A program made the translations under genes and the position numbers. The notes below the pieces were generated by a model, which was not told the DNA's origin, did not search any database, and was given only the letters and a program-made list of their open reading frames with translations. Below, one piece after another: positions 6,146 to 54,975 of a DNA stretch of 64,000 nucleotides; the first letter of the stretch is position 1, and every line of letters starts with the position of its first letter. This DNA is from Minisyncoccia bacterium (lineage in GTDB: Bacteria > Patescibacteriota > Minisyncoccia > Phycocordibacterales > PALSA-1337): contig JBEKVT010000002.1 in assembly GCA_049997795.1 (NCBI GenBank), positions 1,664 to 65,663 of the forward strand, given 5' to 3'.

Positions 6146-6153
6146 TCTGATAA

Positions 6154-6264
6154 GAAAACAAACACATACCTAAAAGAACATTCCCAGCGGGAGCCCACTG
6201 GGAATGTTTTTCTTCAGCTAGAACTCTCGCTTAAGTGGGGTTCTTTTAGGTATGTGTTTGTTTC
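6154..6264. repeat. Palindromic intergenic element, family copy a (reverse orientation); probable bidirectional terminator between convergent pth and rpsA
   Basis: Arms GAAAACAAACACATACCTAAAAGAAC / GTTCTTTTAGGTATGTGTTTGTTTCC (about 23 bp perfect); core CCACTTAAGCG...CCCGCTGGGAATGTTC in reverse complement; right arm ends 1 nt from rpsA stop. Confidence 0.7.
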
Positions 6265-7533
6265 CTAGCTCTTCTCCCCAGCGTACGCCAGGGCCATCTT
6301 CTGCTCTTTCGGGTCGAAAAGGGCGATCTTGAAGGGATAGGTCTTGCCGAGCTCCAGGACCTTTCGGAGCTTCTCTTCGGAGCCGAATTCGGAGACGTGC
6401 ACCAGGCCGGCCACGCCCTCCTCGATCGAGGCCAGGGCGCCGTGCTTGTTGAACTTGATGATCACGCCGGAGACAGGCATGTCCTTCTTGTACTTCTTGC
6501 CGGCCTCGATCCAGGGATTGGGCCGGAGCTGCTTGATGGAGAGGGACACCTTGCCGTCCTTGATCTCGATGATCTTGGCCTTGATCTTCTGACCGGTCTT
6601 GACGAAGTTGCGCGGATCGTCCACCAGACCCCAGTCGATCTCCGAGATGTGGACCAGGCCCTCGAGGCCCTCTTCCAGCTTGACGAAGACGCCGAAATCG
6701 ACCGCGCCCGTGACCACGCCCTCGACTTCGTCGCCGATCTCGTATTTGCTGACGATCTTCTCCTTCTCTTTGTGCTCCAGGCCCTTCTCGGAGAAGATGA
6801 GCTTGCCTTCCTTCGGGTCGGCGGTGATGATCGAGACCTGGAGGCGCTCCCCGACCAGTTTCCGGAGCTCTTCCAGGATTTTATCCTTGTCGCCGTCGGA
6901 GACCCGCGGATAATGGTCGGTCTTCAGCTGGGAAGCCGGCAGGAAGCCGACGATGCCCTGCCATTCCATGAGCAGGCCGCCCTTGTTCGCTTCTTTGACG
7001 AGGAGGTCGAGGACGCGCTTCTCCTTGATGGCCGCTTCGGCCTCGCTCCAGATCAGGGCTTGCCTGGCCTCTTTCAAGGACAGCTCGTAATAGCCGTCTT
7101 TGTGGGCGTCATCGACGATCTTGGCGGCCACGACGTCGCCGACATTCACCTTCTTGATGACGTCGCGGGCCACGATGTATTCGCGGCCGTATATGATGCC
7201 GGTGCCGAAAGGCGCGAGGTCCACGTAGACCGAGGCCTTGTCCACCGCGATGACCGGCCCCTCGACGAGGTCGCCCACTTGAGGCGGATTCTTCATGGCC
7301 GTGATGAAAGGCGCCATGGCGCTGGCTTTTTGGGCGTCGGAGAGCTCAAGCTCGCCGTTCTTCTTGCCGATCGTTCCGGCGGCCTTCCCGGCCTTCTTCT
7401 CGGCCTTTTTATTCGTTTGTTCTCCGGCTGTCTCTTCGGGATGCTTCCCGGTCTGTTTCTTCGGGACCAGGCCTTCCGTGTCGGGACCCGGGCTCTTGGT
7501 CCCGGTCAAAGTCTCTTTTAATCTTTTGAACAT
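6265..7533 (-). CDS. rpsA: 30S ribosomal protein S1 (4 S1 domains, short form) with Lys/Ala-rich N-terminal region
   Basis: Repeated S1-domain patterns (GDVVAAKIVD, GDEVEGVVTGAVDFGVFVKL, GQKIKAKIIEI, VSGVIIKFNKHGALASI). Confidence 0.85.
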   Translation of the reverse strand: MFKRLKETLTGTKSPGPDTEGLVPKKQTGKHPEETAGEQTNKKAEKKAGKAAGTIGKKNGELELSDAQKASAMAPFITAMKNPPQVGDLVEGPVIAVDKASVYVDLAPFGTGIIYGREYIVARDVIKKVNVGDVVAAKIVDDAHKDGYYELSLKEARQALIWSEAEAAIKEKRVLDLLVKEANKGGLLMEWQGIVGFLPASQLKTDHYPRVSDGDKDKILEELRKLVGERLQVSIITADPKEGKLIFSEKGLEHKEKEKIVSKYEIGDEVEGVVTGAVDFGVFVKLEEGLEGLVHISEIDWGLVDDPRNFVKTGQKIKAKIIEIKDGKVSLSIKQLRPNPWIEAGKKYKKDMPVSGVIIKFNKHGALASIEEGVAGLVHVSEFGSEEKLRKVLELGKTYPFKIALFDPKEQKMALAYAGEKS

Positions 7534-8766: not shown

Positions 8767-11235
8767 ATGGCGAAGAGATCCGACCATAACGAGCCCCAAA
8801 ACAAGCCGGTTCCAGCCGGCATTGTCGCTCGCAACATCTCGACCGAGATGCGCGAGTCTTTTCTCGACTACGCCATGTCGGTCATCACCGACCGCGCCCT
8901 GCCCGACGTCCGCGACGGCCTGAAGCCGGTCCATCGCCGCATCCTGTATGCCATGCACGAGAAGGGCCTCACATTCCAGGCCAAATTCCGCAAGTCGGCT
9001 GTCCCTGTCTCCGATACCATGGGCAATTACCACCCGCACGGCGATGCTGCCATATATGAATCCCTGGTCAAGATGGCCCAGGATTTCACCATGCGTTATC
9101 CCTTGATCCAGGGCCAGGGCAATTTCGGCACGGTAGACGGCGACCCGGCCGCGGCTATGCGCTACACCGAGGCTCGCATGTCGCGCCTGTCTTCCGAATT
9201 ACTGCGCGACATAGACAAGGATACCGTCGAATTCAGACCGAACTACGACGGTACCAAGAAGGAGCCGTCGGTCCTGCCGACTTCGGTGCCGAACCTCTTA
9301 TTGAACGGTACCTTAGGCATCGCCGTCGGCATGGCCACCAACATCGCTCCGCACAATTTACGCGAGGTCGTGGATGCCACTGTCCACCTGGTGGACAATA
9401 AGGATGCCGCTACTGAGGATCTACTCCAATTCATCAAAGGCCCCGATTTTCCTTTGGGCGCCGTCATCTATGGCGAGAAAGACATCCATCATGCCTATGC
9501 CACTGGCCGCGGCGGCATGATGGTGCGCGGCGAGGCCGAGATCACCGAAGACAAGAAAGGCCAGTATCAGATCGTCATCACTTCGATCCCGTTCCGGGTG
9601 AACAAGAGCGAGCTCATCATGAAGATCGCCGACCTGGTGCACGGGAAGGTGATCGAAGGCGTCAAAAGCCTGCGCGACGAGTCTGACAAGGAGATGCGCA
9701 TCGTGATCGACCTGAAACAGGGCTCATATCCGGAGAAGGTCCTGAATCTTCTCTACAAGCACACCCAGCTCGAAGAGACTTTCCATATGAACACTGTGGC
9801 CCTGGTCGGCGGCGTGCCGCAGACCCTGGGTCTCAAATCCATCCTCCAGGAATTCATCGCCCACAGGATCGAGGTCATCCGCCGCCGCACCAAGTTCGAT
9901 CTCGCCACGGCGGAAGCGCGCGAGCACATCCTAGTCGGCCTGAAGAAGGCTCTCGACCATATCGATGAGATCATAAAATTGATCCGCGCCGCCAAGGACG
10001 CGACCGAAGCCCACGCCGGGCTCGTGAAGAAGTTCAAATTCAGCGATTTGCAAGCCACGGCCATCCTGGAGATGAAGCTCGTCAAGCTCGCCGGCTTGGA
10101 GCGCAAGAAGGTCCTCGACGAGCTCAAGGAAGTCCAAACGCTGATCGAAGACCTGAAGAGCATCCTCGGCAGCGAAAAACGAGTTCGCACGATCATCAAA
10201 ACAGAGCTTGCCGAGATAAGAGGGAAGTACGGAGACGACCGCCGGACCAAGATAGTGAAGCACGGCGTCAAAGAGTTCAACCCCGAAGACCTGATCGCCG
10301 ACGAGGAATCGGTGCTGGTCCTTACGAAAGGCGGCTATATCAAGCGCACCGACCCTGGCGAATATCGCAAACAGAGGCGCGGCGGCGTCGGGGTGGTTGA
10401 TCTCGACACCAAGGAGGAGGACTTCATCTCGCATCTCATCTTCGCTACCACCCACAACGACTTGCTCTTCTTCACGGACAAAGGCAAGGCCTACCAGATC
10501 AAGATGTACGAGATCCCGGAAGGCAAGCGGGCGACCAAGGGCAAGTCGATCATGAATTTCCTGTCGCTCGCGGACGGTGAGCGCGTGACCTCCATCCTGC
10601 CCATGCCCAAGAACAAGAAAGAAGCCGAGGGACTATCTCTCATGATGGTGACCAAGAACGGCACCGGCAAGAAGACCGCCGCAGAGCATTTCAAGGACGT
10701 CCGCCGCTCGGGGCTCATCGCCATCACTCTCGACAAGGGCGACGAATTGATATCGGCCTCTTTCGTCTCCAAGCCTGACGAGGTCGTGATAGCGACCAAA
10801 GAAGGCCAATCCATCCATTTCAAAGAAAGCGACGTGCGCCAAATGGGCCGCAATGCCGCCGGCGTGCGCGTCGTCCGCCTGGGGAAGAGCGACCGCGTCA
10901 TCTCGGCAGACATCGTCGGGAAAGAAGCCAAGAACCCGTGCCTTTTCGTCATGGGGGCGAACGGCTACGGCAAGAAGACCAAGCTCTCTGAATACAAGGT
11001 CCAGAATCGCGGCGGCTCCGGCATTCTGACCATGAACGTGACGGGGAAGACCGGCTCTCTGATGGCCGCCAAGGTCGTGACCGATCTCGACCAGGAAATC
11101 GTGGCCATGTCCAAGAAGTCCCAAGTCATCCGCGTCGATCTAAAGGAGATACCCACTCTCTCTCGCGCCACCCAGGGTGTCCGGGTCATGAAGCTCCGCG
11201 AGGGCGATTCGCTGGCGAGCTTGATTTGCATATAA
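8767..11235 (+). CDS. gyrA: DNA gyrase subunit A
   Basis: 822 aa; [12 protein letters not shown], catalytic Tyr region [11 protein letters not shown]-terminal beta-pinwheel repeats. Confidence 0.95.
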
Positions 11236-11287
11236 ACGTTAGGCCGCGAGGGTGATTCAGTCCGAGTCCAAACCAGCCAGCTAGCAC

Positions 11288-11695
11288 ATGAATGCAGATG
11301 CGCTTAAAGGAGTAACCATTAAAGATGCCGGAGTGAAAGGCCGCGGAATCTTTGCTCTGCGAGATTTCAAGAAAGGAGAGCTGGTGTTAGGTTGGAATAA
11401 AGAAAATAGATTTCTTTCTGAAGAGGAAATTTCAGATCTGCCAGAGGGAGAAAAAAAGTATGTTGCCTTGTGCAACGGGAAATATCTTCTAATCTCAGAA
11501 CCAGAACGTTACATGAATCATTCTTGTGATCCTAATACTATAAATGAAAACGGTCTTGACTACGCTCTTAGAGATATCAAGAAAGGCGAGGAGATTACAG
11601 GAGATTATGATCGGGGAGGTTCATTGTTAGGATTTGAATGTAAATGCGACAGTAAAAATTGCAGAAAGGTAGTTCGTCCCAGGAAGCTTAATTGA
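11288..11695 (+). CDS. SET-domain protein (putative protein-lysine methyltransferase)
   Basis: 135 aa; NHSCDPN, GEEITGDY and post-SET Cys cluster CKCDSKNCRK; low-GC codon usage. Confidence 0.75.
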   Translation: MNADALKGVTIKDAGVKGRGIFALRDFKKGELVLGWNKENRFLSEEEISDLPEGEKKYVALCNGKYLLISEPERYMNHSCDPNTINENGLDYALRDIKKGEEITGDYDRGGSLLGFECKCDSKNCRKVVRPRKLN

Positions 11696-11715
11696 GTTGT
11701 TTCAGGTCAATTATA

Positions 11716-11746
11716 GTTCCGACATCGTACCACGCAGCCAGCCAAT
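11716..11746 (+). repeat. Direct-repeat motif S1: GTTCCGACATCGTACCACGCAGCCAGCCAAT
   Basis: Near-identical to S2 (12317-12348); related to S3/S4 at 30108/30602. Confidence 0.6.
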
Positions 11747-11749: not shown

Positions 11750-12313
11750 ATGAACAATTATATCTTTGGTTATGGAAGTCTCGTGAACAAAGAAAGTCGC
11801 GGACTTACCGGTAAATCAGCACTGATCGGCCCAGTACGAGTGCGCGGAATAAGACGCGGGTGGAATGTCCAAGTCACTGATAAAACAGTACTTGGCGCCA
11901 CATAAGAGCCGGGCGCTATTTGTAATGGAGTAATCGTGTCTGTGCCAGAGCAGGAATTAGCAAGGTACGATGAAAGGGAGATCCCATCGAAATATAAAAG
12001 AATTGAATTACCAGTGGCGAATGTAAATCTTCTCAATAATAAAAGTTCGAGTGGAACCTTCTGGACATATGTCGCGATTGATCCAAAAGATCCTGACGCT
12101 GAACATCCCATCCCTCAGTCATATATAGATGTAGTACTCACCGGTTTTTTGGATTTTGGGACTGACTTTGCAAAAGAGTTCGTCGATTCTACGGAGGGAT
12201 GGAAATATATTGTGAATGATCGAGATAACCCACTGTACTCGAGAGCATTAAAGAATGTTGAACGTAGAGCTGAAATTGACACCCTCCTTTCCAAGGCAAG
12301 TCTAGTCTCCTAG
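11750..12313 (+). pseudogene. Gamma-glutamyl cyclotransferase-like (GGCT/AIG2/ChaC-like) gene interrupted by in-frame TAA at 11903-11905
   Basis: N-terminal MNNYIFGYGSLVNKESRGL (YGSL motif); downstream same-frame segment ELARYDEREIPSKYKRIELPV fits the LDxxE...YxRxxVxV GGCT pattern; ATG 11750 and track ORF 11936..12313 are in the same frame, separated by TAA. Confidence 0.6.
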
Positions 12314-12316: not shown

Positions 12317-12348
12317 GGTTCCAACATCGTACCACGCAGCCAGCCGAT
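12317..12348 (+). repeat. Direct-repeat motif S2: GGTTCCAACATCGTACCACGCAGCCAGCCGAT
   Basis: Begins 4 nt after stop of the GGCT-like gene. Confidence 0.6.
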
Positions 12349-14254: not shown

Positions 14255-14692
14255 ATGAAACACGCTCTCTTCATCGCATCGCTTCTCGTCCTTCTCGGTC
14301 CGTTCGCCGCGCCGACCGTCCTGGCCCAGGTGCCGGAAGCCAACATAAACAACGCCAGCTTCCGTCTCGTCATCTGCGATGGACCGGCTCTGCCGGCGAA
14401 CGTCCCGCCGCCGACAACTGACTACGTCCCTTGTGACTTCCAGCATCTCATGATAGAGGCCCAATACCTGATCAACGTCATGATAATCCTCGGCACACTC
14501 GGAGCCTTGATAGGCTTCGCTTACGCCGGCTATCTCTACATAACCGGCACCCAGCCGAATCTGGCCAAGGCCAAGGGCATATTTCCAAAGGTCTTCTGGG
14601 GGTTTATACTGATGCTGACCGCCTGGTTCATCGTCTATCAGATCCTCTCTTGGCTGACCGGGAACGCCGCGACGTATCTCGGCGGCTCGTAA
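14255..14692 (+). CDS. Pilin-like paralog P1: signal peptide + two C-terminal TM helices (VirB2/TrbC-like architecture); 2 Cys in exposed region
   Basis: SP MKHALFIASLLVLLGPFAAPTVLAQV; C-terminal FWGFILMLTAWFIVYQILSWL. Confidence 0.6.
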   Translation: MKHALFIASLLVLLGPFAAPTVLAQVPEANINNASFRLVICDGPALPANVPPPTTDYVPCDFQHLMIEAQYLINVMIILGTLGALIGFAYAGYLYITGTQPNLAKAKGIFPKVFWGFILMLTAWFIVYQILSWLTGNAATYLGGS

Positions 14693-14696
14693 TCAC

Positions 14697-15125
14697 ATGA
14701 AGAACATCCCGATGAAGAATCTCATTTATACCTTGGCTCTGGCCGTTTTGCTCGTCGGGGCTGCTCAATCCGCGAACGCCGATATCCAATCGGGGAACCC
14801 GAGCGGCACCTTCTCCCTTCAAAACCCTCTGCAATTCACGACCGTCGGCGACCTCATCAACGGCTTCCTGCAGATATTCTCATATGTGGCCGTCCTGTTC
14901 GCCGTCCTGATGCTAGTCTGGGTCGGCCTGCAATTCGTCCTGGCCAGGGGCAACCCCGAACGCATGAAAGTGCTGAAAAACTGGCTCCTGTGGATCGTCA
15001 TCGGGGCGGCCATCGTGATCGGCGCCAGGATCATCGTCTCGGTCGTCATAAACACCCTAGGCTCGACAGGCGCGGTCAACCAGAATATCCTGAATAGCGC
15101 CAATAACGCCCTCAATAAGCCGTGA
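14697..15125 (+). CDS. Pilin-like paralog P2 (SP + two TM helices)
   Basis: SP ...LALAVLLVGAAQSANA; helix pair FSYVAVLFAVLMLVWVGLQF / WLLWIVIGAAIVIGARIIV. Confidence 0.6.
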   Translation: MKNIPMKNLIYTLALAVLLVGAAQSANADIQSGNPSGTFSLQNPLQFTTVGDLINGFLQIFSYVAVLFAVLMLVWVGLQFVLARGNPERMKVLKNWLLWIVIGAAIVIGARIIVSVVINTLGSTGAVNQNILNSANNALNKP

Positions 15126-15164
15126 GACCTCTTGGCCGATTAACAGCCGTTTAAAAACATAACC

Positions 15165-15554
15165 ATGAAGAAAAAGCTCATCGTGTTTGCCTCCGTCCTC
15201 CCGTTCATCTTGCCGACCGTGGTTCAAGCTCAAACCCCCGTCGCTCTCAATTGTGATCCGAAGACATTATGCTATGTCGTGAGCCAGGTCATCGCGTACC
15301 TGAACCTGGCCTTGAGCTTGCTGATGGCGGTGGCCATCGTCATGTTCGTGTGGTACGTGATCAAGTATTACATCAGGCCCAACGAGGAGCGCAAACAAGC
15401 CGGACTATACGTCATGTACAGCATCATCGGCTTTTTCGTCATCCTGTCCATCTGGGGCATCATCAACATCCTCGGCAGCACCTTCGGTCTGGGGAACGCC
15501 GGCAACCAGCAAAAGAGCTGGAGCAGCTTCGTCAATCTCTTCCCGCAGCAATGA
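15165..15554 (+). CDS. Pilin-like paralog P3 (SP + two TM helices, Cys pair)
   Basis: C-terminal YSIIGFFVILSIWGIINILGSTFGLGNAGNQ shared with P4. Confidence 0.65.
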   Translation: MKKKLIVFASVLPFILPTVVQAQTPVALNCDPKTLCYVVSQVIAYLNLALSLLMAVAIVMFVWYVIKYYIRPNEERKQAGLYVMYSIIGFFVILSIWGIINILGSTFGLGNAGNQQKSWSSFVNLFPQQ

Positions 15555-15589
15555 AATATTATGATCGACCATAACCGATACACACTATC

Positions 15590-15913
15590 ATGATGCAAGT
15601 CACGGACGTCAATTCACTGTTCTACAAGCTGAATGGGATCGGCAACGCCGTGACCATTCTGCTCGTCTCGCTCGCGGTCATCTGGATAGTCGTCTCCGTC
15701 GTGCGTTTCATCATGGCGAGCGGGGAGAACCGGGCCGTTCACCGGGCTTCCGTCCTTTGGGGCATCGTCGGTCTAGCCGTCATCCTGTCCATCTGGGGCA
15801 TCATCAACATCTTCGGGCGCACTTTTGGACTGGGAAATGCCCAGAATCAATGGCGATCTTCGAGGGACGCGAACAGCCTGATCATGACGCCTCCGGTATC
15901 GCCATTCCAGTAA
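15590..15913 (+). CDS. Pilin-like paralog P4, no signal peptide (possible silent or truncated copy)
   Basis: Starts directly in mature-like region VTDVNSLFYKLNGIGNAV; shares 33-nt identical block gtcatcctgtccatctggggcatcatcaacatc with P3. Confidence 0.5.
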   Translation: MMQVTDVNSLFYKLNGIGNAVTILLVSLAVIWIVVSVVRFIMASGENRAVHRASVLWGIVGLAVILSIWGIINIFGRTFGLGNAQNQWRSSRDANSLIMTPPVSPFQ

Positions 15914-16015
15914 TCCACAGCCAGCGCTTCTTTTTAGAGGCGATATCGGCTATAATCCGGATGGCTACAAGTGATTTTAACAGTCGTCATTAACCAATCA
16001 TCCATCAGCATTATC

Positions 16016-16378
16016 ATGAAAAAGCTCATAGCATCGCTCGCGGTCCTGACCCCGTCGGTCGCCTTCGCCGCCCAGCCGATCACTGACGTCAACTCGCTGA
16101 CCCAGAAGCTGACCGGCATCGGCAATACCGTGATCGGCATCCTGATCTCGCTCGCGGTCATCTGGATCATCTGGAACGTCGTCTCTTTCATCATCCACGC
16201 CGACAATCCGGAGAAGCGCGGCGAGAGCGGCAAGGCCATCCTTTGGGGCGTCGTCGGCCTGTTCGTCATCCTGTCCATCTGGGGCCTGGTCAACATCCTG
16301 ACCGGCACGTTCAGCACCAATACCCAGGCGCCGGTCCAGAACTACCCGGTCAATCCCAATCCGCCGATAGTCCAGTGA
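16016..16378 (+). CDS. Pilin-like paralog P5 (SP + two TM helices)
   Basis: MKKLIASLAVLTPSVAFAAQPITDVNSLTQKLTGIGNTV...; TATAAT at about 15945. Confidence 0.65.
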   Translation: MKKLIASLAVLTPSVAFAAQPITDVNSLTQKLTGIGNTVIGILISLAVIWIIWNVVSFIIHADNPEKRGESGKAILWGVVGLFVILSIWGLVNILTGTFSTNTQAPVQNYPVNPNPPIVQ

Positions 16379-16391
16379 CCGAATAGCCAGC

Positions 16392-16643
16392 GTGGCTTCC
16401 CCGTTCTTCAAGGCCATAAACCCGATCATCACCAACGTGGTCAATCCGCTGGTGTGGCTGGCTTTCGCCGTGGCCTTCGTCGTCTTCGCCTACGGGGTCG
16501 TCCAGATGATCACTCACGAAACGGACGCGGAGGCCCACAAGCGGGGAAGATGGAGCATCTTGAGCGGCATAATCGGCATGTTCATCATGTTCTCGGCCTG
16601 GGGCATCATCAATATCGTCGCCAACACGGTCAAGTCGCTTTGA
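16392..16643 (+). CDS. Pilin-like paralog P6, minimal two-helix unit, GTG start, no signal peptide
   Basis: 83 aa; WSILSGIIGMFIMFSAWGIINIV matches family C-terminal consensus. Confidence 0.5.
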   Translation: MASPFFKAINPIITNVVNPLVWLAFAVAFVVFAYGVVQMITHETDAEAHKRGRWSILSGIIGMFIMFSAWGIINIVANTVKSL

Positions 16644-16671
16644 GCCCAGGCAAGCGAAAACCTGGGAAATA

Positions 16672-16712
16672 AAAAAAGGGCCGCAGGAGAGTTCGTCTCC
16701 GCGGCCCTTGGA
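16672..16712 (-). terminator. Intrinsic terminator for minus-strand SPFH operon (hairpin GGGCCGC...GCGGCCC followed by U-run on minus strand)
   Basis: Seen in sequence: AAAAAAAGGGCCGCAGGAGAGTTCGTCTCCGCGGCCC. Confidence 0.5.
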
Positions 16713-22510: not shown

Positions 22511-23209
22511 ATGAGCGCGAACTTCGAATCATTGGCGGAACATATCGGCGTCGATTTCGACGATATCTCGCTCCTTAGAGCCGCCTGCACCCACCGCTCT
22601 TACTTGAACGAGAACAAAGGCGCCGGCCTGGAGCACAATGAGCGCTTGGAATTCCTGGGCGACGCGGTCCTCGAGCTTGTCACGACAAGCTTCCTCTTCC
22701 GCAAATACCCGAAAAAATCGGAAGGGGAGCTGACCGCCTTCCGCTCGGCCATCGTCAATACGGTCTCTCTTACCAAGGTGGCGGAGCGCATCGGCCTGGA
22801 CGGCTTCATCCTCTTGTCCAAAGGCGAGGCCAAAGACACCGGCCGGGCCCGTTCGGTCATCATCGCCAACGCCGTCGAAGCCGTTATCGGCGCCATATAC
22901 ATCGACAAAGGATACGACGCCGCGGCCAATTTCATCTCCGATCACGTCCTTTACGTCATCGACATCGAGAATATCGTCGAGAACAAGTCCTGGCTCGACG
23001 CCAAGAGCCATTTCCAGGAGGCGGCCCAAGAAAAAGCCGGGGCCACGCCGACCTACCGGACTCTGAAAGAGACCGGCCCTGACCACGACAAGCACTTCGT
23101 CTTGGGCGTGTTCCTCGGCGACGTCCAAATAGCGACGGGGAGCGGCGCTTCGAAGCAGGAAGCCGAGCAGATGGCGGCCAAGAAGGCGCTCGAGGTCAAG
23201 GGTTGGTAG
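22511..23209 (+). CDS. rnc: Ribonuclease III
   Basis: ERLEFLGDAVLELVTT signature, C-terminal dsRBD. Confidence 0.9.
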   Translation: MSANFESLAEHIGVDFDDISLLRAACTHRSYLNENKGAGLEHNERLEFLGDAVLELVTTSFLFRKYPKKSEGELTAFRSAIVNTVSLTKVAERIGLDGFILLSKGEAKDTGRARSVIIANAVEAVIGAIYIDKGYDAAANFISDHVLYVIDIENIVENKSWLDAKSHFQEAAQEKAGATPTYRTLKETGPDHDKHFVLGVFLGDVQIATGSGASKQEAEQMAAKKALEVKGW

Positions 23210-23211
23210 CG

Positions 23212-23324
23212 GAACGGGAGAACATGCCTCTGAATGACATTCCCAGCGGGAGTTCGTCTGGGATATTTTCCTTTAGCCTTGGATCCGAATAAGTGGAGTC
23301 ATTCGGGGGCATGTTCTCCCGTTC
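23212..23324. repeat. Palindromic intergenic element, family copy b (reverse orientation), between rnc and smc
   Basis: Arms GAACGGGAGAACATGCC / GGCATGTTCTCCCGTTC; core in reverse complement TCCACTTATTCGG...CCCGCTGGGAATGT. Confidence 0.7.
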
Positions 23325-23346
23325 TGCGATACGCTATAATTCACTC

Positions 23347-25674: not shown

Positions 25675-26433
25675 ATGGAGTCTCTCTCGAAACAGCAAAT
25701 GATACTCCTTGCCCTCTTGGTGTCTTTCGTGACCTCTCTCGCCACGGGCATCACCACGGTCTCGCTCATGGACCAGTCGCCCAATATGACGAGGACCATC
25801 ACCCAGGTCATACAGCAGACCGTTTCAGGGCTATCGACCGGCGGGGCATCTTCGACAGCCGCCGTGGCCATAGCCGTGAATGACGAAGTTGCTGACGCCA
25901 CTGCCTCGATCGAGCCTTCCATCGTCCGCTTGCGCGACGGAGACAGCGGTCCGGTCGTGGGCTTGGGCCTCATCGTCTCCGGATCGGGGGCCATCATGTC
26001 CGACAAGGATCTGACCGATACCCTCAATTCGCCGGAGGCGGTCTTCCCGAACGGTACTTCCGTGCCGATCGCCGTGGCCCGCTTCCAGATAAACGGCGAC
26101 GTGGCCTTCCTCGTCCCGACCAGGTCCATCTCGATCTCCATGAGGCCGATCGTCTTCGGCTCCGCGGCCCGTCTCGGCGCCTCGCTTTGGTCCTTGACCG
26201 GCACATCCACTTATACCTTGTCGCAAGGCATCGTGACCGAGCTCGTCCCGATCTCCGGATCCGAGCTTTCGTCGATACGCACCTCGATCGTCGCTCCCAA
26301 GATGCTTCCTGGCACGCCGCTCTTCGACGCCACGGGCGCAGTCATAGGCATGGCTACCACCGGTTCGCTTTCAGGCAGCCAAGGCGCTTCATTCTATCCG
26401 ATCCAGGAAGTTAGGACCGCCGTGCCGAGATGA
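25675..26433 (+). CDS. Membrane-anchored trypsin-like (HtrA/S1-family-like) protein, catalytic Ser apparently absent
   Basis: PGTPLFDATGAVIGMATTG aligns to HtrA NPGNSGGPLVNxxGEVIGINT but lacks GNSGG Ser. Confidence 0.5.
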   Translation: MESLSKQQMILLALLVSFVTSLATGITTVSLMDQSPNMTRTITQVIQQTVSGLSTGGASSTAAVAIAVNDEVADATASIEPSIVRLRDGDSGPVVGLGLIVSGSGAIMSDKDLTDTLNSPEAVFPNGTSVPIAVARFQINGDVAFLVPTRSISISMRPIVFGSAARLGASLWSLTGTSTYTLSQGIVTELVPISGSELSSIRTSIVAPKMLPGTPLFDATGAVIGMATTGSLSGSQGASFYPIQEVRTAVPR

Positions 26434-26440
26434 GCCGAAA

Positions 26441-26541
26441 AGGATATGTCTTGAAAGAACTCCACTTATTCGGCTTTTGTGCCTAAAGAAAGCGTCTCAA
26501 CCTACTGATCCCGCTGGGAATGTTCTTTCAAGGCATATCCT
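26441..26541. repeat. Palindromic intergenic element, family copy c (forward)
   Basis: Arms AGGATATGTCTTGAAAGAAC / GTTCTTTCAAGGCATATCCT (20 bp perfect); core TCCACTTATTCGG...ATCCCGCTGGGAATGTTC. Confidence 0.7.
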
Positions 26542-26580
26542 TGTCGGCTCTTCATTCACGGCCGTCCCGCACCGCCGGAT

Positions 26581-29374: not shown

Positions 29375-29458
29375 GCGCAGGTGGCAGAGTGGTCAATTGC
29401 AATGGACTGTAAATCCATCGCCCTATGGGCTACGGGGGTTCAAATCCCTCCCTGCGCA
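29375..29458 (+). tRNA. tRNA-Tyr (anticodon GTA), long variable arm
   Basis: GCGCAGGTGGCAGAGTGG...ACTGTAAATCC...GGGGGTTCAAATCCCTCCCTGCGCA. Confidence 0.85.
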
Positions 29459-29475
29459 CAAATCTTTTGTGATAT

Positions 29476-29507
29476 GGTAAAGAAAAAAGCCCGCGTCGAT
29501 GGCGCGG
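29476..29507 (-). terminator. Intrinsic terminator for minus-strand gene 29521-29937 (GCCCGCG...CGCGGGC hairpin + U-run)
   Basis: Seen in sequence. Confidence 0.5.
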
Positions 29508-29520
29508 GCTCACAAAACAT

Positions 29521-29937
29521 TCACGGATAGCCCAGTTGCTGGAAAGCCGCGTAGAAAGCGGCTGCGTCTCTGGCTGATTTATCTGCCGCTTCTTGGGTGG
29601 CTGTCCATCGCCTGTCGATCCTGACGACATCTCCGACCTTGATAACTGCGCTTAGGGGAGCATAGGTTGACATTGAATGAAGGCGGACACTGACCTCATC
29701 TCCTGTGGGGAAAGAAGTCTTACCGTCCTTGTCGCAGTCGAGGTAACGGATCATGATAAAGCTGTTGCCCACTACATTATTGTCGACCGCTACCACCTTG
29801 CCGTAGGACACAGGATTCAGTTGACCACGAGATCCTTTGTATATCACTACGCCGGCTAAGACAGCCAAGACAACAACCCCGAGATAGAGGAATACAAGGG
29901 GAGGATATTCCTTGAAAAATAGAAATAGTTTTTTCAT
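29521..29937 (-). CDS. Hypothetical membrane-anchored protein (138 aa), island cargo
   Basis: N-terminal TM LVFLYLGVVVLAVLAGVVI then ~100-aa domain; lower GC than flanks. Confidence 0.45.
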   Translation of the reverse strand: MKKLFLFFKEYPPLVFLYLGVVVLAVLAGVVIYKGSRGQLNPVSYGKVVAVDNNVVGNSFIMIRYLDCDKDGKTSFPTGDEVSVRLHSMSTYAPLSAVIKVGDVVRIDRRWTATQEAADKSARDAAAFYAAFQQLGYP

Positions 29938-30107
29938 AGCTGAAGTTTGGTTGAAAGACGCGACAGAATTGTCTCGCCTTCGTTCCCAAACTCCAACTCA
30001 TTTCAATGATCCTAACTACCTAACATTATATAGCATTTAATATCTATTTGTCAAGCTCTATTAATTCCATCGGAACGCTGTTTTAGTGACTTAAGTTCAT
30101 TAAAAAG

Positions 30108-30140
30108 GTTCTAACTTCGTCCCACGCAGCGCACAAATCC
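30108..30140 (+). repeat. Direct-repeat motif S3: GGTTCTAACTTCGTCCCACGCAGCGCACAAATC
   Basis: 17/20 nt identity to tRNA-Tyr 3' end plus trailer; T-loop-like GGTTC start. Confidence 0.6.
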
Positions 30141-30226
30141 TTCCAACAACAATCAGTAATACAAAAAGCCGCTCGGAATGGTACGAGCGGCCGATAACAC
30201 ATCATTGACGAGATTCGATCGTGACA

Positions 30227-30490
30227 TTATCCGCCGTCCTCGACAAGTTCTTCCGGCTTGACCGGTTCTCCATATCTGGGAGCTTTCCAGTCTGGCTGAC
30301 AGCTTGGACAATGCAGATGCCCAACTTGTATCACCTTGCCGCTCCCCGAAAGCGGAAATGGTCCATCGTGGAGTGAACGGCCTGTCTGGGTGCACAGAAT
30401 GTCGACTCCCGTCTTTTTGCAAGTCCAACCATTGGGTCCGTGAACAGCGTGTTCCTGGAGCCATTTTGCATCTGTTGCGAGAATAGTCAC
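30227..30490 (-). CDS. Small Cys-containing hypothetical protein (87 aa; CxxxxxxxxC ... CPSC), island cargo
   Basis: Flanked by S3 and S4; followed by hairpin GCCGCTCGGAATGGTACGAGCGGC. Confidence 0.4.
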   Translation of the reverse strand: MTILATDAKWLQEHAVHGPNGWTCKKTGVDILCTQTGRSLHDGPFPLSGSGKVIQVGHLHCPSCQPDWKAPRYGEPVKPEELVEDGG

Positions 30491-30601
30491 GGCTTACCTT
30501 TCTATATTTGAATGACCACCGAGATAAGTATCCGGGACTGACATTACTACTTAAACCACTACTGTCAAGATAATGATTTAACGGCTCAGACTCATCAAAG
30601 A

Positions 30602-30635
30602 GGTTTCAACTTCATCCTACGCAGCGCACGATTCA
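30602..30635 (+). repeat. Direct-repeat motif S4: GGTTTCAACTTCATCCTACGCAGCGCACGATTCA, abutting alr stop
   Basis: Near-identical to S3. Confidence 0.6.
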
Positions 30636-31832: not shown

Positions 31833-31988
31833 ATGTCGCAGGACCAACTCATCCAATTGCGAAACAAGGAGACCGGCGAGGTCTATTGGACGCGCAAGAA
31901 CAAGAAGAAGGTGGAGCGCAAGATCGAGCTCAAGAAATATTCGGCCAGGCTCCGTAAGCACGTCGTCTTCAAAGAATCCAAGAAATAA
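31833..31988 (+). CDS. rpmG: 50S ribosomal protein L33
   Basis: MSQDQLIQLRNKETGEVYWTRKNKKKVERKIELKKYSARLRKHVVFKESKK; below track length cutoff. Confidence 0.8.
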   Translation: MSQDQLIQLRNKETGEVYWTRKNKKKVERKIELKKYSARLRKHVVFKESKK

Positions 31989-31990
31989 TC

Positions 31991-32105
31991 GCAGGAAAGG
32001 AAGTGCTTCTGAAGAACTCCTCTTTACATCCCGCTTTAGGCTGAAGGCAAGGGTCATCGGACGTATCCCGCTGGGAATGTTCTTCAGAAGCACTTCCTTT
32101 CCTGC
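31991..32105. repeat. Palindromic intergenic element, family copy d (forward), 27-bp perfect arms
   Basis: GCAGGAAAGGAAGTGCTTCTGAAGAAC ... GTTCTTCAGAAGCACTTCCTTTCCTGC; core ends ATCCCGCTGGGAATGTTC. Confidence 0.7.
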
Positions 32106-32128
32106 TATACTTCTCGTGTTCCTTAGAT

Positions 32129-40007: not shown

Positions 40008-40886
40008 TTACGGAGAAAGCCGCAACAAGGCGCAGTCTGCCTCGATCAATCCTTCGAGCTCGAGGGACGACAATCTGGCGCTCGCTTCCTGCGGTTCTAC
40101 GCCGAGGGTTTCGATGAGGGCGTCGGATGAGATCTCGCCGCGGCGAAGGACGTCTATGATCCGCCTAGAGAGCGGATCCAAGGCCTCCAAGCGGCGCTTT
40201 GCGATTGTCTCATGCGCGGGTGGGACGAAGCCGAGCGCCTCCAAAAGGTCGTCCGACGAGGCGACCAGTCCCGCCCCGCGGTGAAGGAGCATGTGCGCGC
40301 CGTACGAGTGATCGGCGAATATCGAACCCGGCACGGCCAGGACGTCGCGATCGAAATCCTCGGCATATCTGGCGGTCATGAGCGAGCCTGAGCCGTGGCC
40401 GGCTTCGACGATCAAGGTGGCGTGAGATATGCCGGCCATCAGGCGATTACGGGTAGGGAACATGAACTCAGCGGTCCGGCATTCAGGAGCGTATTCGGAA
40501 AGGAGCGCTCCGCCGGCCTCTATGATCTTCCGCGCAAGCGGCTCGTTCGAATATGGATACACGACATCCCAATCAAGGCCTGATCCGGGGAACGCGACGC
40601 AATGTAAACCAGCTTCTAGAGCTGCTTCATGGGCCATGCCGTCTATGCCGATCGCCAATCCCGAAACGATCGAGATAGGATAGCCCTTGAGGCCCAAGAC
40701 GAGCTTGGCCACGGCTTCTTCGCCGTACCGGCTCGGATGGCGGGAACCAACCACGCATAAAAATTTCAGGCCATCTGGATCTGGCCATTTACCCCGCATC
40801 CAGAGCTTCTTCGGCGGCCTGTGCATGTTCTGCATTGTTATAGGATAAGAATCCGGAAAGATCACTCTGATTTGATTATTTTCCAT
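40008..40886 (-). CDS. dprA: DNA processing protein DprA (Smf)
   Basis: Rossmann-like DprA core (VVGSRHPSRYGEEAV...GIDGMAHEAAL) + C-terminal winged helix; adjacent to topA. Confidence 0.8.
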   Translation of the reverse strand: MENNQIRVIFPDSYPITMQNMHRPPKKLWMRGKWPDPDGLKFLCVVGSRHPSRYGEEAVAKLVLGLKGYPISIVSGLAIGIDGMAHEAALEAGLHCVAFPGSGLDWDVVYPYSNEPLARKIIEAGGALLSEYAPECRTAEFMFPTRNRLMAGISHATLIVEAGHGSGSLMTARYAEDFDRDVLAVPGSIFADHSYGAHMLLHRGAGLVASSDDLLEALGFVPPAHETIAKRRLEALDPLSRRIIDVLRRGEISSDALIETLGVEPQEASARLSSLELEGLIEADCALLRLSP

Positions 40887-41014
40887 GGTTGTTCGACGAT
40901 TAAGCTTCATAAACTAGATGCGGCGTAATAAAAAAGGCGCCTCGCGGGCCTCGTGACGCGGCCATTATAACACTTTTTTCTTATGTCAAAGATTGCTATG
41001 ATGTAAGGGCTTCC

Positions 41015-46230: not shown

Positions 46231-46301
46231 TGCGGGATCGTCTAATGGTAGGACACGAGCCTTTGAAGCTCGCTATCTTGGTTCGACTCCAAGTCCCGCA
46301 G
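46231..46301 (+). tRNA. tRNA-Gln (anticodon TTG)
   Basis: TGCGGGATCGTCTAATGGTAGGACACGAGCCTTTGAAGCTCG...GGTTCGACTCCAAGTCCCGCAG. Confidence 0.8.
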
Positions 46302-46405
46302 CAGACAAAAAATTGTTTATCCTAGACAAGCCAAACGTTCCGTGGTAGATTCTCCACGATTTCGAACGTTCTTTTCCCAACCATCCAACCAACCCAGTCC
46401 GAATC

Positions 46406-46693
46406 ATGAAAAAGGTAGTCAGCCCGGAAGTCGCTAAGGCAGAACGCAGAGGTAATAAAGATACGAATCATCCGTGGAAGATCGTTTATCTCTCCGCGGA
46501 TGGCGTTCCCATCAAAAAGAAGGAGGATGCCTGCTGTGGGTTCTCGTGCGCCCTGAAGAAGGCCCGCCACGCTCTCAACGGCAAGAGTTCGCCGCCGGTC
46601 AAGGAAGTCCGCATCTACGGGGACAGCAATAAAGCTCCGGCGAAATTCCGGGACGGATTCAAGAACGGGTATTTCACTGTCATCGCCGCCTGA
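46406..46693 (+). CDS. Hypothetical small protein (95 aa, CCGFSC motif)
   Basis: Followed by a strong terminator; near-palindrome with two GAACGTTC cores 35-70 nt upstream. Confidence 0.45.
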   Translation: MKKVVSPEVAKAERRGNKDTNHPWKIVYLSADGVPIKKKEDACCGFSCALKKARHALNGKSSPPVKEVRIYGDSNKAPAKFRDGFKNGYFTVIAA

Positions 46694-53634: not shown

Positions 53635-54666
53635 ATGAAAAAAATCCGCGTCGCCATCAACGGTTTCGGCAGGATCGGCCGGGCCTTCCTCCGGGTCGCC
53701 AAGGAGCGCCAGGAGATAGAGGTCGTGGCCGTGAACGACCTCGGCGACATCGAGAATTTCGCCTATCTCCTGAAGCACGACAGCGTCTACGGCACGAGCC
53801 CATTCGACGTCTCCGTGAACGAGAAGAACGGCTCGCTCATGGTCGACGGCCAGGAGATCCTGTTCGTAAGCGAGAAGGACCCGACCATGCTGCCGTGGAA
53901 GAAATTGGATATCGACGTAGTCGTCGAGTCCACTGGGCTGTTCACCTCCGCAGAGAAGGCTAACCATCACATCGATGCCGGCGCCAAGCGGGTGGTCATC
54001 TCCGCGCCGATTAAAGATGCTCCGGATGCCGCAGTAAAAGGCGAGACCGTCCTCATGGCCATGAACGAGGTTAAGCTCGAATCATGCCCGATCTCTTCCA
54101 ACGCCTCCTGCACCACCAATGCCGGCTCGCCCCTGATCGCCATCCTCGACGAAGCTATCGGCATAGAGAAGGCGCTCCTCAACACCGTGCATGCCTACAC
54201 CGCGAGCCAATCGATAGTTGACGGACCATCCAAGAAAGACCTGCGTGAAGGCCGGGCCGGCGCCGAGAACATCGTGCCCTCATCGACCGGAGCGGCCATA
54301 GCAGTCACCAAGGTCATCACCCAATTGAGCGGCAAGTTCGACGGCATCTCCATCAGGGTGCCAGTCGTGGCGGGCTCGATCGTCGACGTCACTTTCGTCG
54401 GGAAGCGCGACACGACCGCCGAAGAGGTGAATTCCATCCTGAAGAAAGCCGCCGAGAGCCCGCGCTGGCGGGGTATCTTCGCTGTAACGGAGGAGCCGCT
54501 TGTCTCGCGAGACATCATCGGCAACCGCCACGCCTCCATCGCCGATCTCAATTTCACCCGCGTGGTAGGCGGCAATCTGGTCAAGGTCTTGGCTTGGTAT
54601 GACAATGAGATGGGATACACCTATACCCTGGTGGATCATGTGATCAAGGCCGGCAGGCTCGTATAA
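53635..54666 (+). CDS. gap: Glyceraldehyde-3-phosphate dehydrogenase
   Basis: INGFGRIGR NAD-binding, SNASCTTN catalytic Cys motif. Confidence 0.9.
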   Translation: MKKIRVAINGFGRIGRAFLRVAKERQEIEVVAVNDLGDIENFAYLLKHDSVYGTSPFDVSVNEKNGSLMVDGQEILFVSEKDPTMLPWKKLDIDVVVESTGLFTSAEKANHHIDAGAKRVVISAPIKDAPDAAVKGETVLMAMNEVKLESCPISSNASCTTNAGSPLIAILDEAIGIEKALLNTVHAYTASQSIVDGPSKKDLREGRAGAENIVPSSTGAAIAVTKVITQLSGKFDGISIRVPVVAGSIVDVTFVGKRDTTAEEVNSILKKAAESPRWRGIFAVTEEPLVSRDIIGNRHASIADLNFTRVVGGNLVKVLAWYDNEMGYTYTLVDHVIKAGRLV

Positions 54667-54672
54667 TCAAAG

Positions 54673-54975
54673 ATGGGAAGCTACAACAAATTGGTCAGGG
54701 ATAAAATCCCTGAAATCCTCGATAAGAAAGGCGTTGCATACGAGAAGAGGGCTGCTTCTCCTGAAGAATACAAGGCTGAGCTCGTAAAGAAGCTCGGTGA
54801 AGAGGCCGGGGAATTATCTGAGACTGGAGATCCGGAAGAATTAGCTGATATTGCGGAAGTCATCGAAGCCCTTAAGAAGCTCCCTGAATATAAAAATATC
54901 GAGGAACTAAGACGGAAAAAGCACGCGGAACGTGGGGGTTTTGACAAAAAGATCATCCTTAGGGGCGAGAAGTGA
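54673..54975 (+). CDS. MazG-like nucleotide pyrophosphohydrolase, small form
   Basis: 100 aa; EExxEL...DxEELxDxxDV pattern; AT-richer than neighbours. Confidence 0.55.
   Translation: MGSYNKLVRDKIPEILDKKGVAYEKRAASPEEYKAELVKKLGEEAGELSETGDPEELADIAEVIEALKKLPEYKNIEELRRKKHAERGGFDKKIILRGEK

What the first reader, a model, noticed from the sequence alone, without database searches (positions are those of the whole stretch)
11716..11746. Shared ~30-nt repeat motif (4 copies, 2 loci) resembles the 3' end of tRNA-Tyr: att-site remnants of tRNA-targeting integrative elements
S1 GTTCCGACATCGTACCACGCAGCCAGCCAAT (11716), S2 GGTTCCAACATCGTACCACGCAGCCAGCCGAT (12317), S3 GGTTCTAACTTCGTCCCACGCAGCGCACAAATC (30108) and S4 GGTTTCAACTTCATCCTACGCAGCGCACGATTCA (30602) share the consensus GGTTCyAACwTCrTmCyACGCAGC. 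Pairs within a locus are nearly identical, as expected for direct repeats flanking an insertion. S3 matches the adjacent tRNA-Tyr 3' end plus trailer (TCCCTCCCTGCGCACAAATC at 29445-29464) at 17/20 positions, including an 11/11 run GCGCACAAATC, and it begins with a T-loop-like GGTTC. Island 2 directly abuts the 3' end of tRNA-Tyr. This is the classic signature of integrase-mediated insertion into a tRNA 3' end, with duplicated partial tRNA copies (attL/attR) that later decay. Two cargo genes, each with its own repeat, at the tRNA locus suggest tandem accretion. No integrase is present in the window.
Basis: partly seen in the sequence, partly recalled or inferred. Interest (0 to 1): 0.8.

Follow-up and report, generated by a model that had tools for sequence, protein, structure and literature searches.

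The report
tRNA-anchored gene-cassette arrays in a CPR bacterium
The four repeats are real and are the conserved ~28-base end-sites of small single-gene cassettes that pile up next to tRNA genes in ultra-small Patescibacteria, an integron-like gene-capture arrangement with no integrase nearby that I could not find described in the literature searched.

Summary
The four copies exist at the stated coordinates, all on the + strand, with 0 expected by chance. Each closes one low-GC single-gene unit. These units sit between gyrA and a methyltransferase (two units) and between tRNA-Tyr and alr (two units).

The motif is not a decaying copy of the tRNA-Tyr 3' end. Its 22-24-nt core (GGTTCCAACATCGTMCCACGCAGC) recurs almost unchanged in unrelated Patescibacteria contigs, always as same-strand arrays with one gene per unit. 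Only the last 4-6 nt are locus-specific: GCAC at tRNA-Tyr, CAGC elsewhere.

In five other independent arrays the array starts exactly at the 3' end of a tRNA-Gln gene. The window's own genome carries a third array of 13 cassettes at its tRNA-Gln(CTG), and site quality falls with distance from the tRNA. A relative has an empty tRNA-Tyr|alr junction.

The site has no hairpin, no dyad symmetry and no Rfam match. No recombinase was seen within 10 kb of any annotated array.

Best reading: these are recombination sites of an integron-like, tRNA-anchored cassette system served by an unlinked recombinase. The recombinase and the crossover chemistry remain inferred.

The parts
11254..11281 (+). Degenerate site ('site 0') at the left edge of array 1: GATTCAGTCCGAGTCCAAACCAGCCAGC, 17/28 identical to the motif and ending in the same CAGCCAGC tail.
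   Evidence: Read. The matrix score of -4.8 is in roughly the top 1e-4 of window positions. It lies in the 52-nt gap between the gyrA stop (11235) and the SET start (11288).
11288..11695 (+). Cassette 1a gene: SET-domain protein, 135 aa, GC 0.40, GC3 0.32.
   Evidence: Pfam SET, E=1.5e-15. GC3 is 0.78-0.84 in neighbouring genes. Homologues sit in other tRNA-adjacent small-gene arrays.
11715..11742 (+). S1, cassette-end site AGTTCCGACATCGTACCACGCAGCCAGC (tail CAGC), followed by CAAT.
   Evidence: 43.9 bits.
11750..12313 (+). Cassette 1b gene: gamma-glutamyl cyclotransferase-like (GGACT), with an in-frame TAA at 11903-11905, so probably a pseudogene.
   Evidence: Translation; Pfam GGACT, E=5.6e-8. 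The called-gene layout at this locus is the same in the annotated contigs; only the C-terminal part is called as a gene.
12317..12344 (+). S2, cassette-end site GGTTCCAACATCGTACCACGCAGCCAGC, a perfect match to the family consensus; it starts 3 nt after the stop codon.
   Evidence: 49.2 bits.
29375..29459 (+). tRNA-Tyr(GTA). Its 3' end is the left boundary of array 2. Its last 6 nt, GCGCAC, recur as the tail of S3 and S4.
   Evidence: ARAGORN, Rfam 62.2 bits, sequence.
29460..30106 (-). Cassette 2a: terminator 29511-29487, ORF of 138 aa (29521-29937, no Pfam hit), and a perfect TTGACA-18-TATAAT promoter at 30054-30025.
   Evidence: The 138-aa gene is called at the same position in all six contexts shown for this population.
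30107..30134 (+). S3, cassette-end site GGTTCTAACTTCGTCCCACGCAGCGCAC (tail GCAC), followed by AAATC.
   Evidence: 34.4 bits.
30135..30601 (-). Cassette 2b: terminator 30192-30167 and a candidate ORF of 87 aa (30227-30490, contains CPSC, no Pfam hit). This ORF was not called by the public annotation.
30602..30629 (+). S4, the most diverged copy: GGTTTCAACTTCATCCTACGCAGCGCAC. It lies 3 nt before the stop codon of alr (30633-30635, - strand).
   Evidence: 21.6 bits; alr identified by Pfam.

Best explanation
S1-S4 are the conserved end-sites of mobile single-gene cassettes belonging to a cassette system specific to Patescibacteria.

Anatomy. Each cassette is (optional promoter) - one gene - (optional terminator) - a roughly 33-bp site, wAAAw-GGTTCCAACATCGTMCCACGCAGC-CAGC-AAwt. 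The site lies on the same strand as the anchoring tRNA gene.

Proposed mechanism (inferred). A circular cassette recombines through this site with either the extreme 3' end of a tRNA gene or an existing site copy. The usual target is tRNA-Gln, whose last bases ...CGCAGC resemble the site. Here the targets are tRNA-Tyr and a pseudo-site downstream of gyrA. Insertion falls just after the base that follows the discriminator, so the tRNA stays intact.

The left 22-24 nt of each site travel with the cassette and would be the recombinase-binding arm. The last 4-6 nt are the crossover or overlap region and take the sequence of the resident locus: CAGC at tRNA-Gln-type sites, GCAC at tRNA-Tyr. Repeated insertion at the tRNA-proximal end builds arrays.

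The recombinase acts in trans and is not linked to the arrays. The most likely type is a heterology-tolerant tyrosine recombinase that uses an asymmetric, attP-arm-like site.

What is shown and what is inferred. Shown: the anatomy, the family, the tRNA anchoring, the insertion status and the lack of a hairpin. Inferred: the circular intermediate, the crossover position and the enzyme class.
For: (1) Real and specific. There are 4 copies against 0 expected, and no other position in the window scores above 2.6 bits.

(2) Family. Strict pattern scans found the motif in 5 genome loci and 13 metagenome loci. It occurs as same-strand arrays spaced 260-1440 bp apart with about one gene per unit: L001 has 5 copies, L003 has 4, L004/L016 has 4, L008 has 2, L011 has 5. 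The logo shows about 33 informative positions.

(3) tRNA anchoring. Arrays in L004/L016, L005, L009, L011 and L014 begin directly at a tRNA-Gln 3' end, on the same strand.

(4) Same genome. L005 proteins lie on the 657,439-bp Minisyncoccia contig that also holds the window. That contig carries pyrG | tRNA-Gln(CTG) | 13 site copies over 11 kb | HIT gene. Site scores are mostly 44-49 near the tRNA and 30-33 at the far end.

(5) Insertion. Relative L029 has tRNA-Tyr only 19 nt from the alr stop. L027 and L028 carry other content at that junction. Cassette genes have GC3 of 0.32-0.53 against 0.78-0.84 in the host.

(6) Cassettes as units. A homologous kinase-like cassette (56% aa identity) sits between two sites in both L008 and L011, in different arrays. 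The two SET cassettes in this one genome are only 29% identical, which points to independent acquisitions.

(7) Array-specific tails. Tails are GCAC in both copies at tRNA-Tyr, TAGC in both copies in L008, and CAGC in most others.

(8) Gene orientation. By my count cassette genes share the site's strand, 3 are opposite and 5 units have no ORF of 80 aa or more. This fits a DNA site better than an RNA signal.
Against: No recombinase was found in any of the following: the 64-kb window, the 10 kb on either side of the 13-cassette array, the Pfam-annotated neighbourhoods of the window loci, or the three diverged SET-homologue arrays. The last three lack this motif itself.

No cassette gain or loss was seen among the 20-23 contigs read at each of the three loci in this population. 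No circular junction or excision product has been observed.

The site has no dyad symmetry of the kind typical of recombinase core sites. The register between the tRNA 3' end and the site is ambiguous: GGTTC-to-junction is 23 nt in the tRNAs against 24 or 28 nt in the site. In L003 the tail does not match the adjacent tRNA-Arg end.

The strict search patterns bias the family towards close copies.
Confidence: 0.6

Rival explanations
1. Classic remnants, essentially the first reader's model and the tycheposon model. Larger elements carrying an integrase integrate at the tRNA and later excise imprecisely or decay. Each event leaves behind the cargo next to attR plus one att copy. On this view the cassettes are not individually mobile.
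For: The arrays are tRNA-anchored and show a proximal-to-distal decay gradient. This is the same polarity as the island-growth model described for tycheposons. Absence of an integrase is expected if the vectors have left.
Against: The units are compact, complete expression modules. Stop codons lie 3-5 nt before the site in several units, and some units carry their own promoter and terminator. No partial integrase or replication genes are present. A homologous cassette is bounded by sites on both sides in two different arrays. The repeat is not a copy of the host tRNA 3' end. No matching attP was found in 2.9 million viral contigs, phages or plasmids.
Confidence: 0.2
2. There is no dedicated recombinase. 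Cassettes are exchanged by natural transformation and RecA, with the conserved 28-bp sites serving as short homology anchors. First insertions occur by microhomology (CGCAGC) at tRNA-Gln.
For: A DprA-like ORF is present in the window (my reading of the ORF at 40008-40910; not tested against Pfam). That Patescibacteria are widely thought to be naturally competent is my own background knowledge. The sites are highly identical within an array. No recombinase was found.
Against: Junctions are precise to the base. Tails are array-specific. The same insertion point, one base after the discriminator, is used at both tRNA-Gln and tRNA-Tyr. Arrays begin at tRNA-Gln in five or more independent arrays. 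A 28-bp homology is marginal for RecA-mediated recombination.
Confidence: 0.08
3. One-ended or single-strand transposition by an HUH or rolling-circle enzyme (IS91/ISCR- or IS200/IS605-like). The conserved end acts as the origin or terminus, and CAGC/GCAC is the target tetranucleotide.
For: Only one end of each unit is conserved. A 4-nt locus-specific sequence is repeated at both flanks. A rolling-circle Rep gene (PF23343, E=2.8e-20) lies about 1.5 kb from the tRNA that heads the L003 array.
Against: There is no subterminal hairpin on either strand; fold z-scores are +0.1 to +1.4. The Rep gene is on the 5' side of the tRNA, outside the array, and occurs in only one of about 10 arrays. No such gene lies near the arrays of the window's genome.
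Confidence: 0.08
4. The motif is a regulatory or RNA-level signal (a 3'-UTR or processing element, a tRNA-like tag, or a protein operator) that happens to accompany accessory genes. It is not a recombination site.
For: It usually follows the stop codon of a same-strand gene. It contains tRNA-like blocks: GGTTC and CGCAGCCA.
Against: Both genes in array 2 and several elsewhere are on the opposite strand. There is no conserved pairing partner, no stable fold and no Rfam match even at E<=1. In the roughly 105 kb of this genome examined, strong copies occur only at boundaries of foreign cargo and never at core genes.
Confidence: 0.04

Closest known systems
Integrons and CALINs (arrays of gene cassettes with attC sites)
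   Same: Tandem arrays of mostly single-ORF cassettes. Most genes share one orientation. Each cassette ends in a recombination-type site that starts at or just after the stop codon. Array-specific site variants occur. Cargo is a diverse set of small accessory enzymes. As in CALINs, no integrase is adjacent to the arrays.
   Different: The site is a short (about 28-33 bp) linear sequence without the R''/L''-L'/R' palindrome and does not fold. It is conserved in sequence across distant hosts. The array is anchored at a tRNA 3' end instead of attI next to intI. Many cassettes carry their own promoter. No IntI was found.
tRNA-gene-targeting integrative islands, tandem accretion, and tycheposon-type island growth (bioRxiv 10.1101/2020.12.28.424599; Islander, PMC4383910)
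   Same: The tRNA 3' end serves as the seed. Direct repeats sit between successive acquisitions. The newest or most intact units are next to the tRNA. The host genome is streamlined.
   Different: The repeats are not partial copies of the host tRNA. The crossover lies at or after the very end of the tRNA, so nothing needs to be restored. Units are 0.3-2.2 kb single genes without integrase or replication modules. The same site family is also used away from tRNAs (downstream of gyrA).
Xer-dependent modules (IMEX arrays at dif; pdif modules)
   Same: Sites of about 28 bp. Elements lack their own recombinase. Elements form tandem arrays separated by site copies.
   Different: There is no 11-6-11 dyad architecture and no resemblance to dif. 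The arrays sit at several loci, not at a terminus dif site. All sites are in direct orientation.
Tn916/CTnDOT-type tyrosine recombination with non-homologous coupling sequences
   Same: The few bases at the junction differ from locus to locus and appear to be taken from the target. This is expected for staggered cuts that tolerate heterology.
   Different: Those are large self-encoded conjugative elements with two specific ends. Here only one conserved end exists per unit and no enzyme is encoded.

Membership tests
Integron | An intI tyrosine recombinase gene next to the array (with attI and Pc) | tested here: not met
   No integrase Pfam family among called genes within about 4-10 kb of window arrays 1 and 2 or the 13-cassette array. 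A crude HxxR..Y motif scan of 498 kb of held sequence was negative. The array starts at a tRNA.
Integron | attC: an imperfect palindrome of 57-141 bp (R''-L''...L'-R') that folds as a single-strand hairpin | tested here: not met
   Conservation spans only about 33 nt. The next start codon can lie 4 nt after the site. DNA folds of both strands are no better than shuffles, with z from +0.1 to +1.4.
Integron | A tandem array of single-ORF cassettes, each followed by a site, mostly co-oriented | tested here: met
   13 units at tRNA-Gln in this genome, and 2+2 units in the window.
tRNA-targeting genomic island (Islander-type) | The island abuts a tRNA/tmRNA gene and is bounded by a displaced fragment identical to the tRNA 3' part | tested here: not met
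   The abutment is met (tRNA-Tyr; tRNA-Gln elsewhere). However, the repeat shares only the last 6 nt with tRNA-Tyr, and the tRNA 3' region scores -13.8 against 21.6-49.2 bits for the sites. Array 1 is not at a tRNA.
tRNA-targeting genomic island (Islander-type) | An integrase gene inside the island | tested here: not met
Tycheposon-type island | Elements carry a tyrosine or large serine recombinase plus a replication module and integrate at a specific tRNA | tested here: not met
   The tRNA seed and the proximal-distal gradient are present, but no recombinase or replication genes occur in any sampled array.
Xer/dif-type site (IMEX, pdif module) | A 28-bp site made of two roughly 11-bp inverted arms around a 6-bp centre, related to dif | tested here: not met
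   Direct reading of the consensus: arms GGTTCCAACAT and ACGCAGCCAGC are complementary at only 5 of 11 positions, and there is no TTATGTTAAAT-like arm. No hairpin propensity.
IS200/IS605, IS91/ISCR (HUH transposons) | Subterminal hairpin(s) and an HUH transposase | tested here: not met
   No hairpin. The only HUH gene seen is a rolling-circle Rep outside one array.
Generic dispersed intergenic repeat (REP/MITE-like) | Copies scattered in intergenic regions irrespective of neighbouring cargo | tested here: not met
   All 17 strong copies seen in this genome lie in three arrays of low-GC cargo, and none lies elsewhere in the 64-kb window.

The most novel reading that the evidence does not exclude
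Patescibacteria possess a previously undescribed integron-like gene-capture platform. The 3' end of tRNA-Gln (and occasionally other tRNAs or pseudo-sites) acts as the insertion point. Cassettes carry a short, non-palindromic 28-bp site conserved across lineages. An unlinked recombinase, possibly of a new type or a host housekeeping enzyme, inserts them one by one next to the tRNA. This would make the platform a major route by which these ultra-small, streamlined bacteria acquire accessory genes.
Probability: 0.45. Interest if true: 0.85.

Novelty: new variant of a known kind. Interest (0 to 1): 0.7.

Why it matters
Patescibacteria (CPR) make up a large share of bacterial diversity. Their genomes are about 1 Mb, and the mechanics of their gene exchange are poorly understood. 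A recent survey of horizontal transfer in the group does not mention tRNAs, integrons, cassettes or integrases.

A defined, searchable 28-bp site that delimits individually acquired genes would be useful in three ways. It would give a direct handle on their accessory gene pool: SET-domain proteins, methyltransferases, kinases, HD, Nudix and GGACT enzymes. It would give a way to date acquisitions along an array. It would also set a concrete target for finding the recombinase, which could work on short linear sites and might be useful as a tool.

The result also shows that cassette arrays can be organised without attC hairpins and without a linked integrase.

Tried and rejected
- Motif as a copy of tRNA-Tyr: rejected. 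Only the last 6-11 nt match, and the core is family-wide.
- Motif as a true tRNA 3' half: rejected. The T-loop-like GGTTC and the CGCAG-CCA end are one base out of register, C61 is absent, and there is no Rfam or ARAGORN hit.
- attC-like or other hairpin: rejected.
- dif-like dyad: rejected by direct reading.
- Phage or plasmid attP. Two viral-contig scans gave either nothing or two hits inside long ORFs. BLAST against phages gave only chance-level hits (E>=2) and against plasmids gave none.
- Population polymorphism. The 20-23 contigs read at each of the three loci gave no alternative cassette layout in the contexts shown. Contig breaks exactly at site copies in k=31 assemblies are explained by 30-nt identical repeats.
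- Candidate recombinases. The 530-aa low-GC ORF next to tRNA-Gln in L002 looks by eye like a TPR-repeat protein (not scanned against Pfam). The L008 ORF is an IS30-like transposase about 3 kb from that array. The L001 169-aa ORF has only a sub-threshold DprA-like hit. The L012 Rep lies outside the array. None is convincing.
- Two metagenome hits (L013, L018) lie inside long ORFs and are probably chance matches.
- Literature searches for integron or cassette systems in Patescibacteria found nothing relevant.

Full report
**Observation.** The four sequences are present as described: S1 11715-11742, S2 12317-12344, S3 30107-30134 and S4 30602-30629. A weight matrix built later from 34 family members scores them 43.9, 49.2, 34.4 and 21.6 bits. 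The next best position among 128,000 in the window scores 2.6. The window has six tRNA genes. tRNA-Tyr (29375-29459) directly precedes the second locus.

**Anatomy in the window.**
- Locus 1 reads: gyrA (stop at 11235), a 52-nt gap, a SET-domain gene (11288-11695), S1, a GGACT-like gene with an in-frame TAA (11750-12313), S2, then a core methyltransferase (12414 onward).
- Locus 2 reads: clpB, tRNA-Tyr, a 138-aa ORF on the minus strand, S3, an 87-aa candidate ORF on the minus strand, S4. The alr stop codon lies 3 nt beyond S4.
- The cassette genes have GC3 of 0.32-0.53, against 0.78-0.84 in their neighbours.
- Cassette 2a has a 12/12 consensus promoter and a terminator. Cassette 2b has a terminator.
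- The bases just 3' of the shared core are locus-specific. They are CAGC at locus 1, including a degenerate 'site 0' at 11254-11281 (17/28 identical, top ~1e-4 of matrix scores). They are GCAC at locus 2, which equals the last bases of tRNA-Tyr.

**The family.**
- A strict degenerate pattern found the motif in five loci among 185,579 species genomes and in 13 metagenome loci.
- Four of the five genome hits are Patescibacteria MAGs. The fifth is a 6.7-kb contig binned as 'Bathyarchaeia'.
- Relaxed matching shows same-strand arrays: L001 has 5 copies, L003 has 4, L004/L016 has 4, L005 has 7, L008 has 2 and L011 has 5. Spacing is 260-1440 bp, with about one gene per unit.
- By my count, 14 cassette genes share the site's strand, 3 are opposite, and 5 units lack an ORF of 80 aa or more.
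- The logo gives wAAAw-GGTTCCAACATCGTMCCACGCAGCCAGC-AAwt.
- Many units start with a TTGACA-type promoter right after the site, and many have a terminator or a stop codon right before the next one.
- Variants are array-specific. L011 has CACACAGCC, L001 has CAGACTGCC, L008 has the tail TAGC, and window locus 2 has the tail GCAC.

**tRNA anchoring.**
- In L004/L016, L005, L009, L011 and L014 the array begins directly at the 3' end of a tRNA-Gln gene on the same strand.
- L003 follows a tRNA-Arg. L002 has a tRNA-Gln 2.7 kb upstream.
- tRNA-Gln ends in ...GGTTCGAnTCCAAGyCCsGCAGC|aaa.
- The site has GGTTC, then 13 nt, then CGCAGC, then CAGC. It therefore resembles the tRNA-Gln end, and CGCAG-CCA even mimics a mature 3' end.
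- It is nonetheless one base longer than the tRNA between the two blocks and cannot form a T arm.
- At both tRNA-Gln and tRNA-Tyr the first cassette begins one base after the discriminator. The tRNA is therefore left intact.

**Same genome, third array.**
- The proteins of L005 are found on the 657,439-bp Minisyncoccia contig that also carries the window's alr and SET proteins. The 'Bathyarchaeia' assignment is therefore a binning error.
- On that contig (L045/L056), pyrG and tRNA-Gln(CTG) are followed by 13 site copies over 11 kb, ending before a HIT-family gene.
- Site scores are 44-49 for the proximal copies, apart from the first, which has a 1-nt insertion. They fall to 30-33 for the three most distal copies.
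- Cargo includes HD, ASCH, two methyltransferases, an Asp/Glu racemase, a second SET protein (29% identical to the window's), an SRPBCC protein and an sCache protein. Within the array, GC (500-nt windows) is mostly 0.37-0.53, rising to host-like values (up to 0.62) inside the long distal cassette genes; core flanks are about 0.60.
- This genome therefore has at least 17 copies. The window holds two small secondary arrays.

**Evidence that the cargo was inserted.**
- Relatives with alr 63-66% identical keep the clpB - tRNA-Tyr - alr synteny (L027, L028; in L029 the contig ends before clpB could be seen).
- L029 has only 19 nt between tRNA-Tyr and the alr stop.
- L027 and L028 carry a different ORF there, without the motif.
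- A kinase-like cassette is shared by L008 and L011 (56% aa identity). Homology runs from site to site, in different arrays.
- SET homologues occur in other tRNA-adjacent small-gene arrays. These arrays carry diverged or different end repeats: L032 has GATTCGyTCrAATACCGTCwCAGAC (15/27 identical to the motif), L033 has a truncated GTTCGAACACCGCGCCACA, and L030 has a 17-nt repeat next to tRNA-Ser.

**What the site is not.**
- It has no hairpin on either strand; fold z-scores are +0.1 to +1.4.
- It has no dyad symmetry, by direct reading.
- It has no Rfam match, even at E<=1.
- It has no counterpart in viral contigs, phages or plasmids beyond chance.
- No recombinase appears among Pfam-annotated genes within about 4-10 kb of any of the three arrays of this genome or the three diverged SET-homologue arrays.
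- Crude catalytic-motif scans of 498 kb found only one rolling-circle Rep, which lies outside the L003 array.

**Mechanism (inference).**
- The constant 22-24-nt left part travels with the gene on its left. The 4-6-nt tail matches the resident locus. The weak AAwt that follows belongs to the next cassette.
- This is the pattern expected if a circular cassette carrying P-O-P' recombines with B-O-B' at a tRNA end or at a resident site, giving B-O-P' ... P-O-B'. The overlap would be copied from, or resolved in favour of, the target. For the tRNA copy this outcome is enforced by selection.
AAATC fits the AAAT-type cassette start, which I judged the commonest by eye.
- The decay gradient argues for insertion at the tRNA-proximal end.
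- An asymmetric site, with a long arm on one side only and locus-dependent overlap, fits a heterology-tolerant tyrosine recombinase best. A 4-nt target duplication by another enzyme class cannot be excluded.
- The enzyme itself is unidentified.

**Comparison with known systems.**
- The arrangement works like an integron or CALIN: arrays of single-gene cassettes, each ending in a site. It fails both defining tests, having no attC palindrome and no intI/attI.
- It resembles tRNA-seeded island growth, as in tycheposons. However, the repeats are not host tRNA fragments, and the units lack integrase and replication modules.
- It shares a site length of about 28 bp and the absence of a linked recombinase with Xer-dependent modules, but it has no dif architecture.
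- I found no description of such arrays in Patescibacteria in the searchable literature. That is absence from this library only.

**Verdict.** The most likely identity is a cassette-end recombination site of an integron-like, tRNA-Gln-anchored system in CPR bacteria (confidence about 0.6). The main rival is leftover cargo from departed integrase-bearing elements (about 0.2).

**Caveats.**
- Mobility has not been observed directly.
- The strict search patterns bias the family sample towards close copies.
- Only about 105 kb of the 657-kb genome was inspected.
- The enzyme is unknown.

Noticed in passing
window 6153-6266, 23209-23327, 26429-26553, 31988-32108: A family of long-hairpin intergenic elements. 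Arms are 27-32 nt, 90-97% complementary and about 60 nt apart. They share a central CCCGCTGGGAATGTT block. One lies just upstream of clpB and another between rpmG and tRNA-Trp. No Rfam family reached its gathering score there.
   Followed up: partly
L027 ~6700-6870, L028 ~6740-6910, L033 5260-5340 and 13492-13572, L030 ~10160-10260: In relatives, tRNA genes (Tyr, Gln, Val) are followed by an inverted copy of the tRNA's own 3' end. At tRNA-Tyr and tRNA-Gln the copy is interrupted by a hairpin of about 22 nt and followed by about 100 nt of GC-rich sequence. In L033 this unit of about 190 nt is bracketed by the tRNA-Gln end and a partial direct repeat, GAGGTTCCTTGTACCCCAGC. It may be another small element that targets tRNA 3' ends.
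   Followed up: partly
window 14255-16700: At least five tandem small paralogous genes with T4SS_pilin/TrbC Pfam hits, and a 91-nt repeat family within them.
   Followed up: no
window 11903-11905: An in-frame TAA splits the GGACT-like cassette gene. The called-gene layout is the same in the annotated contigs of the population, so this is a fixed pseudogene or possibly a read-through site.
   Followed up: partly
L005 (GenBank JBEKOM010000035.1): This 6.7-kb contig, deposited in a 'Candidatus Bathyarchaeia' MAG, belongs to the Minisyncoccia genome of the window. Identical proteins lie on the 657-kb contig, so it is a binning error in the public record.
   Followed up: yes
L012 2808-3572 (same contig as L003): A rolling-circle replication initiator gene (PF23343 REP_ORF2-G2P, phrog_3419) beside a DUF559/HNH-like ORF, about 1.5 kb on the 5' side of the tRNA-Arg that heads the L003 array. 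It may belong to an integrated ssDNA element.
   Followed up: partly
window 46231-46302: The window's own tRNA-Gln(TTG) ends in ...TCCCGCAGC, like occupied tRNA-Gln genes elsewhere, yet has no site copy downstream. A 95-aa ORF follows at 46406-46693.
   Followed up: partly
window 54500-55300: A low-GC patch (0.47-0.52) between gap (glyceraldehyde-3-phosphate dehydrogenase-like) and rpiB-like genes. It has no motif copy and was not examined further.
   Followed up: no
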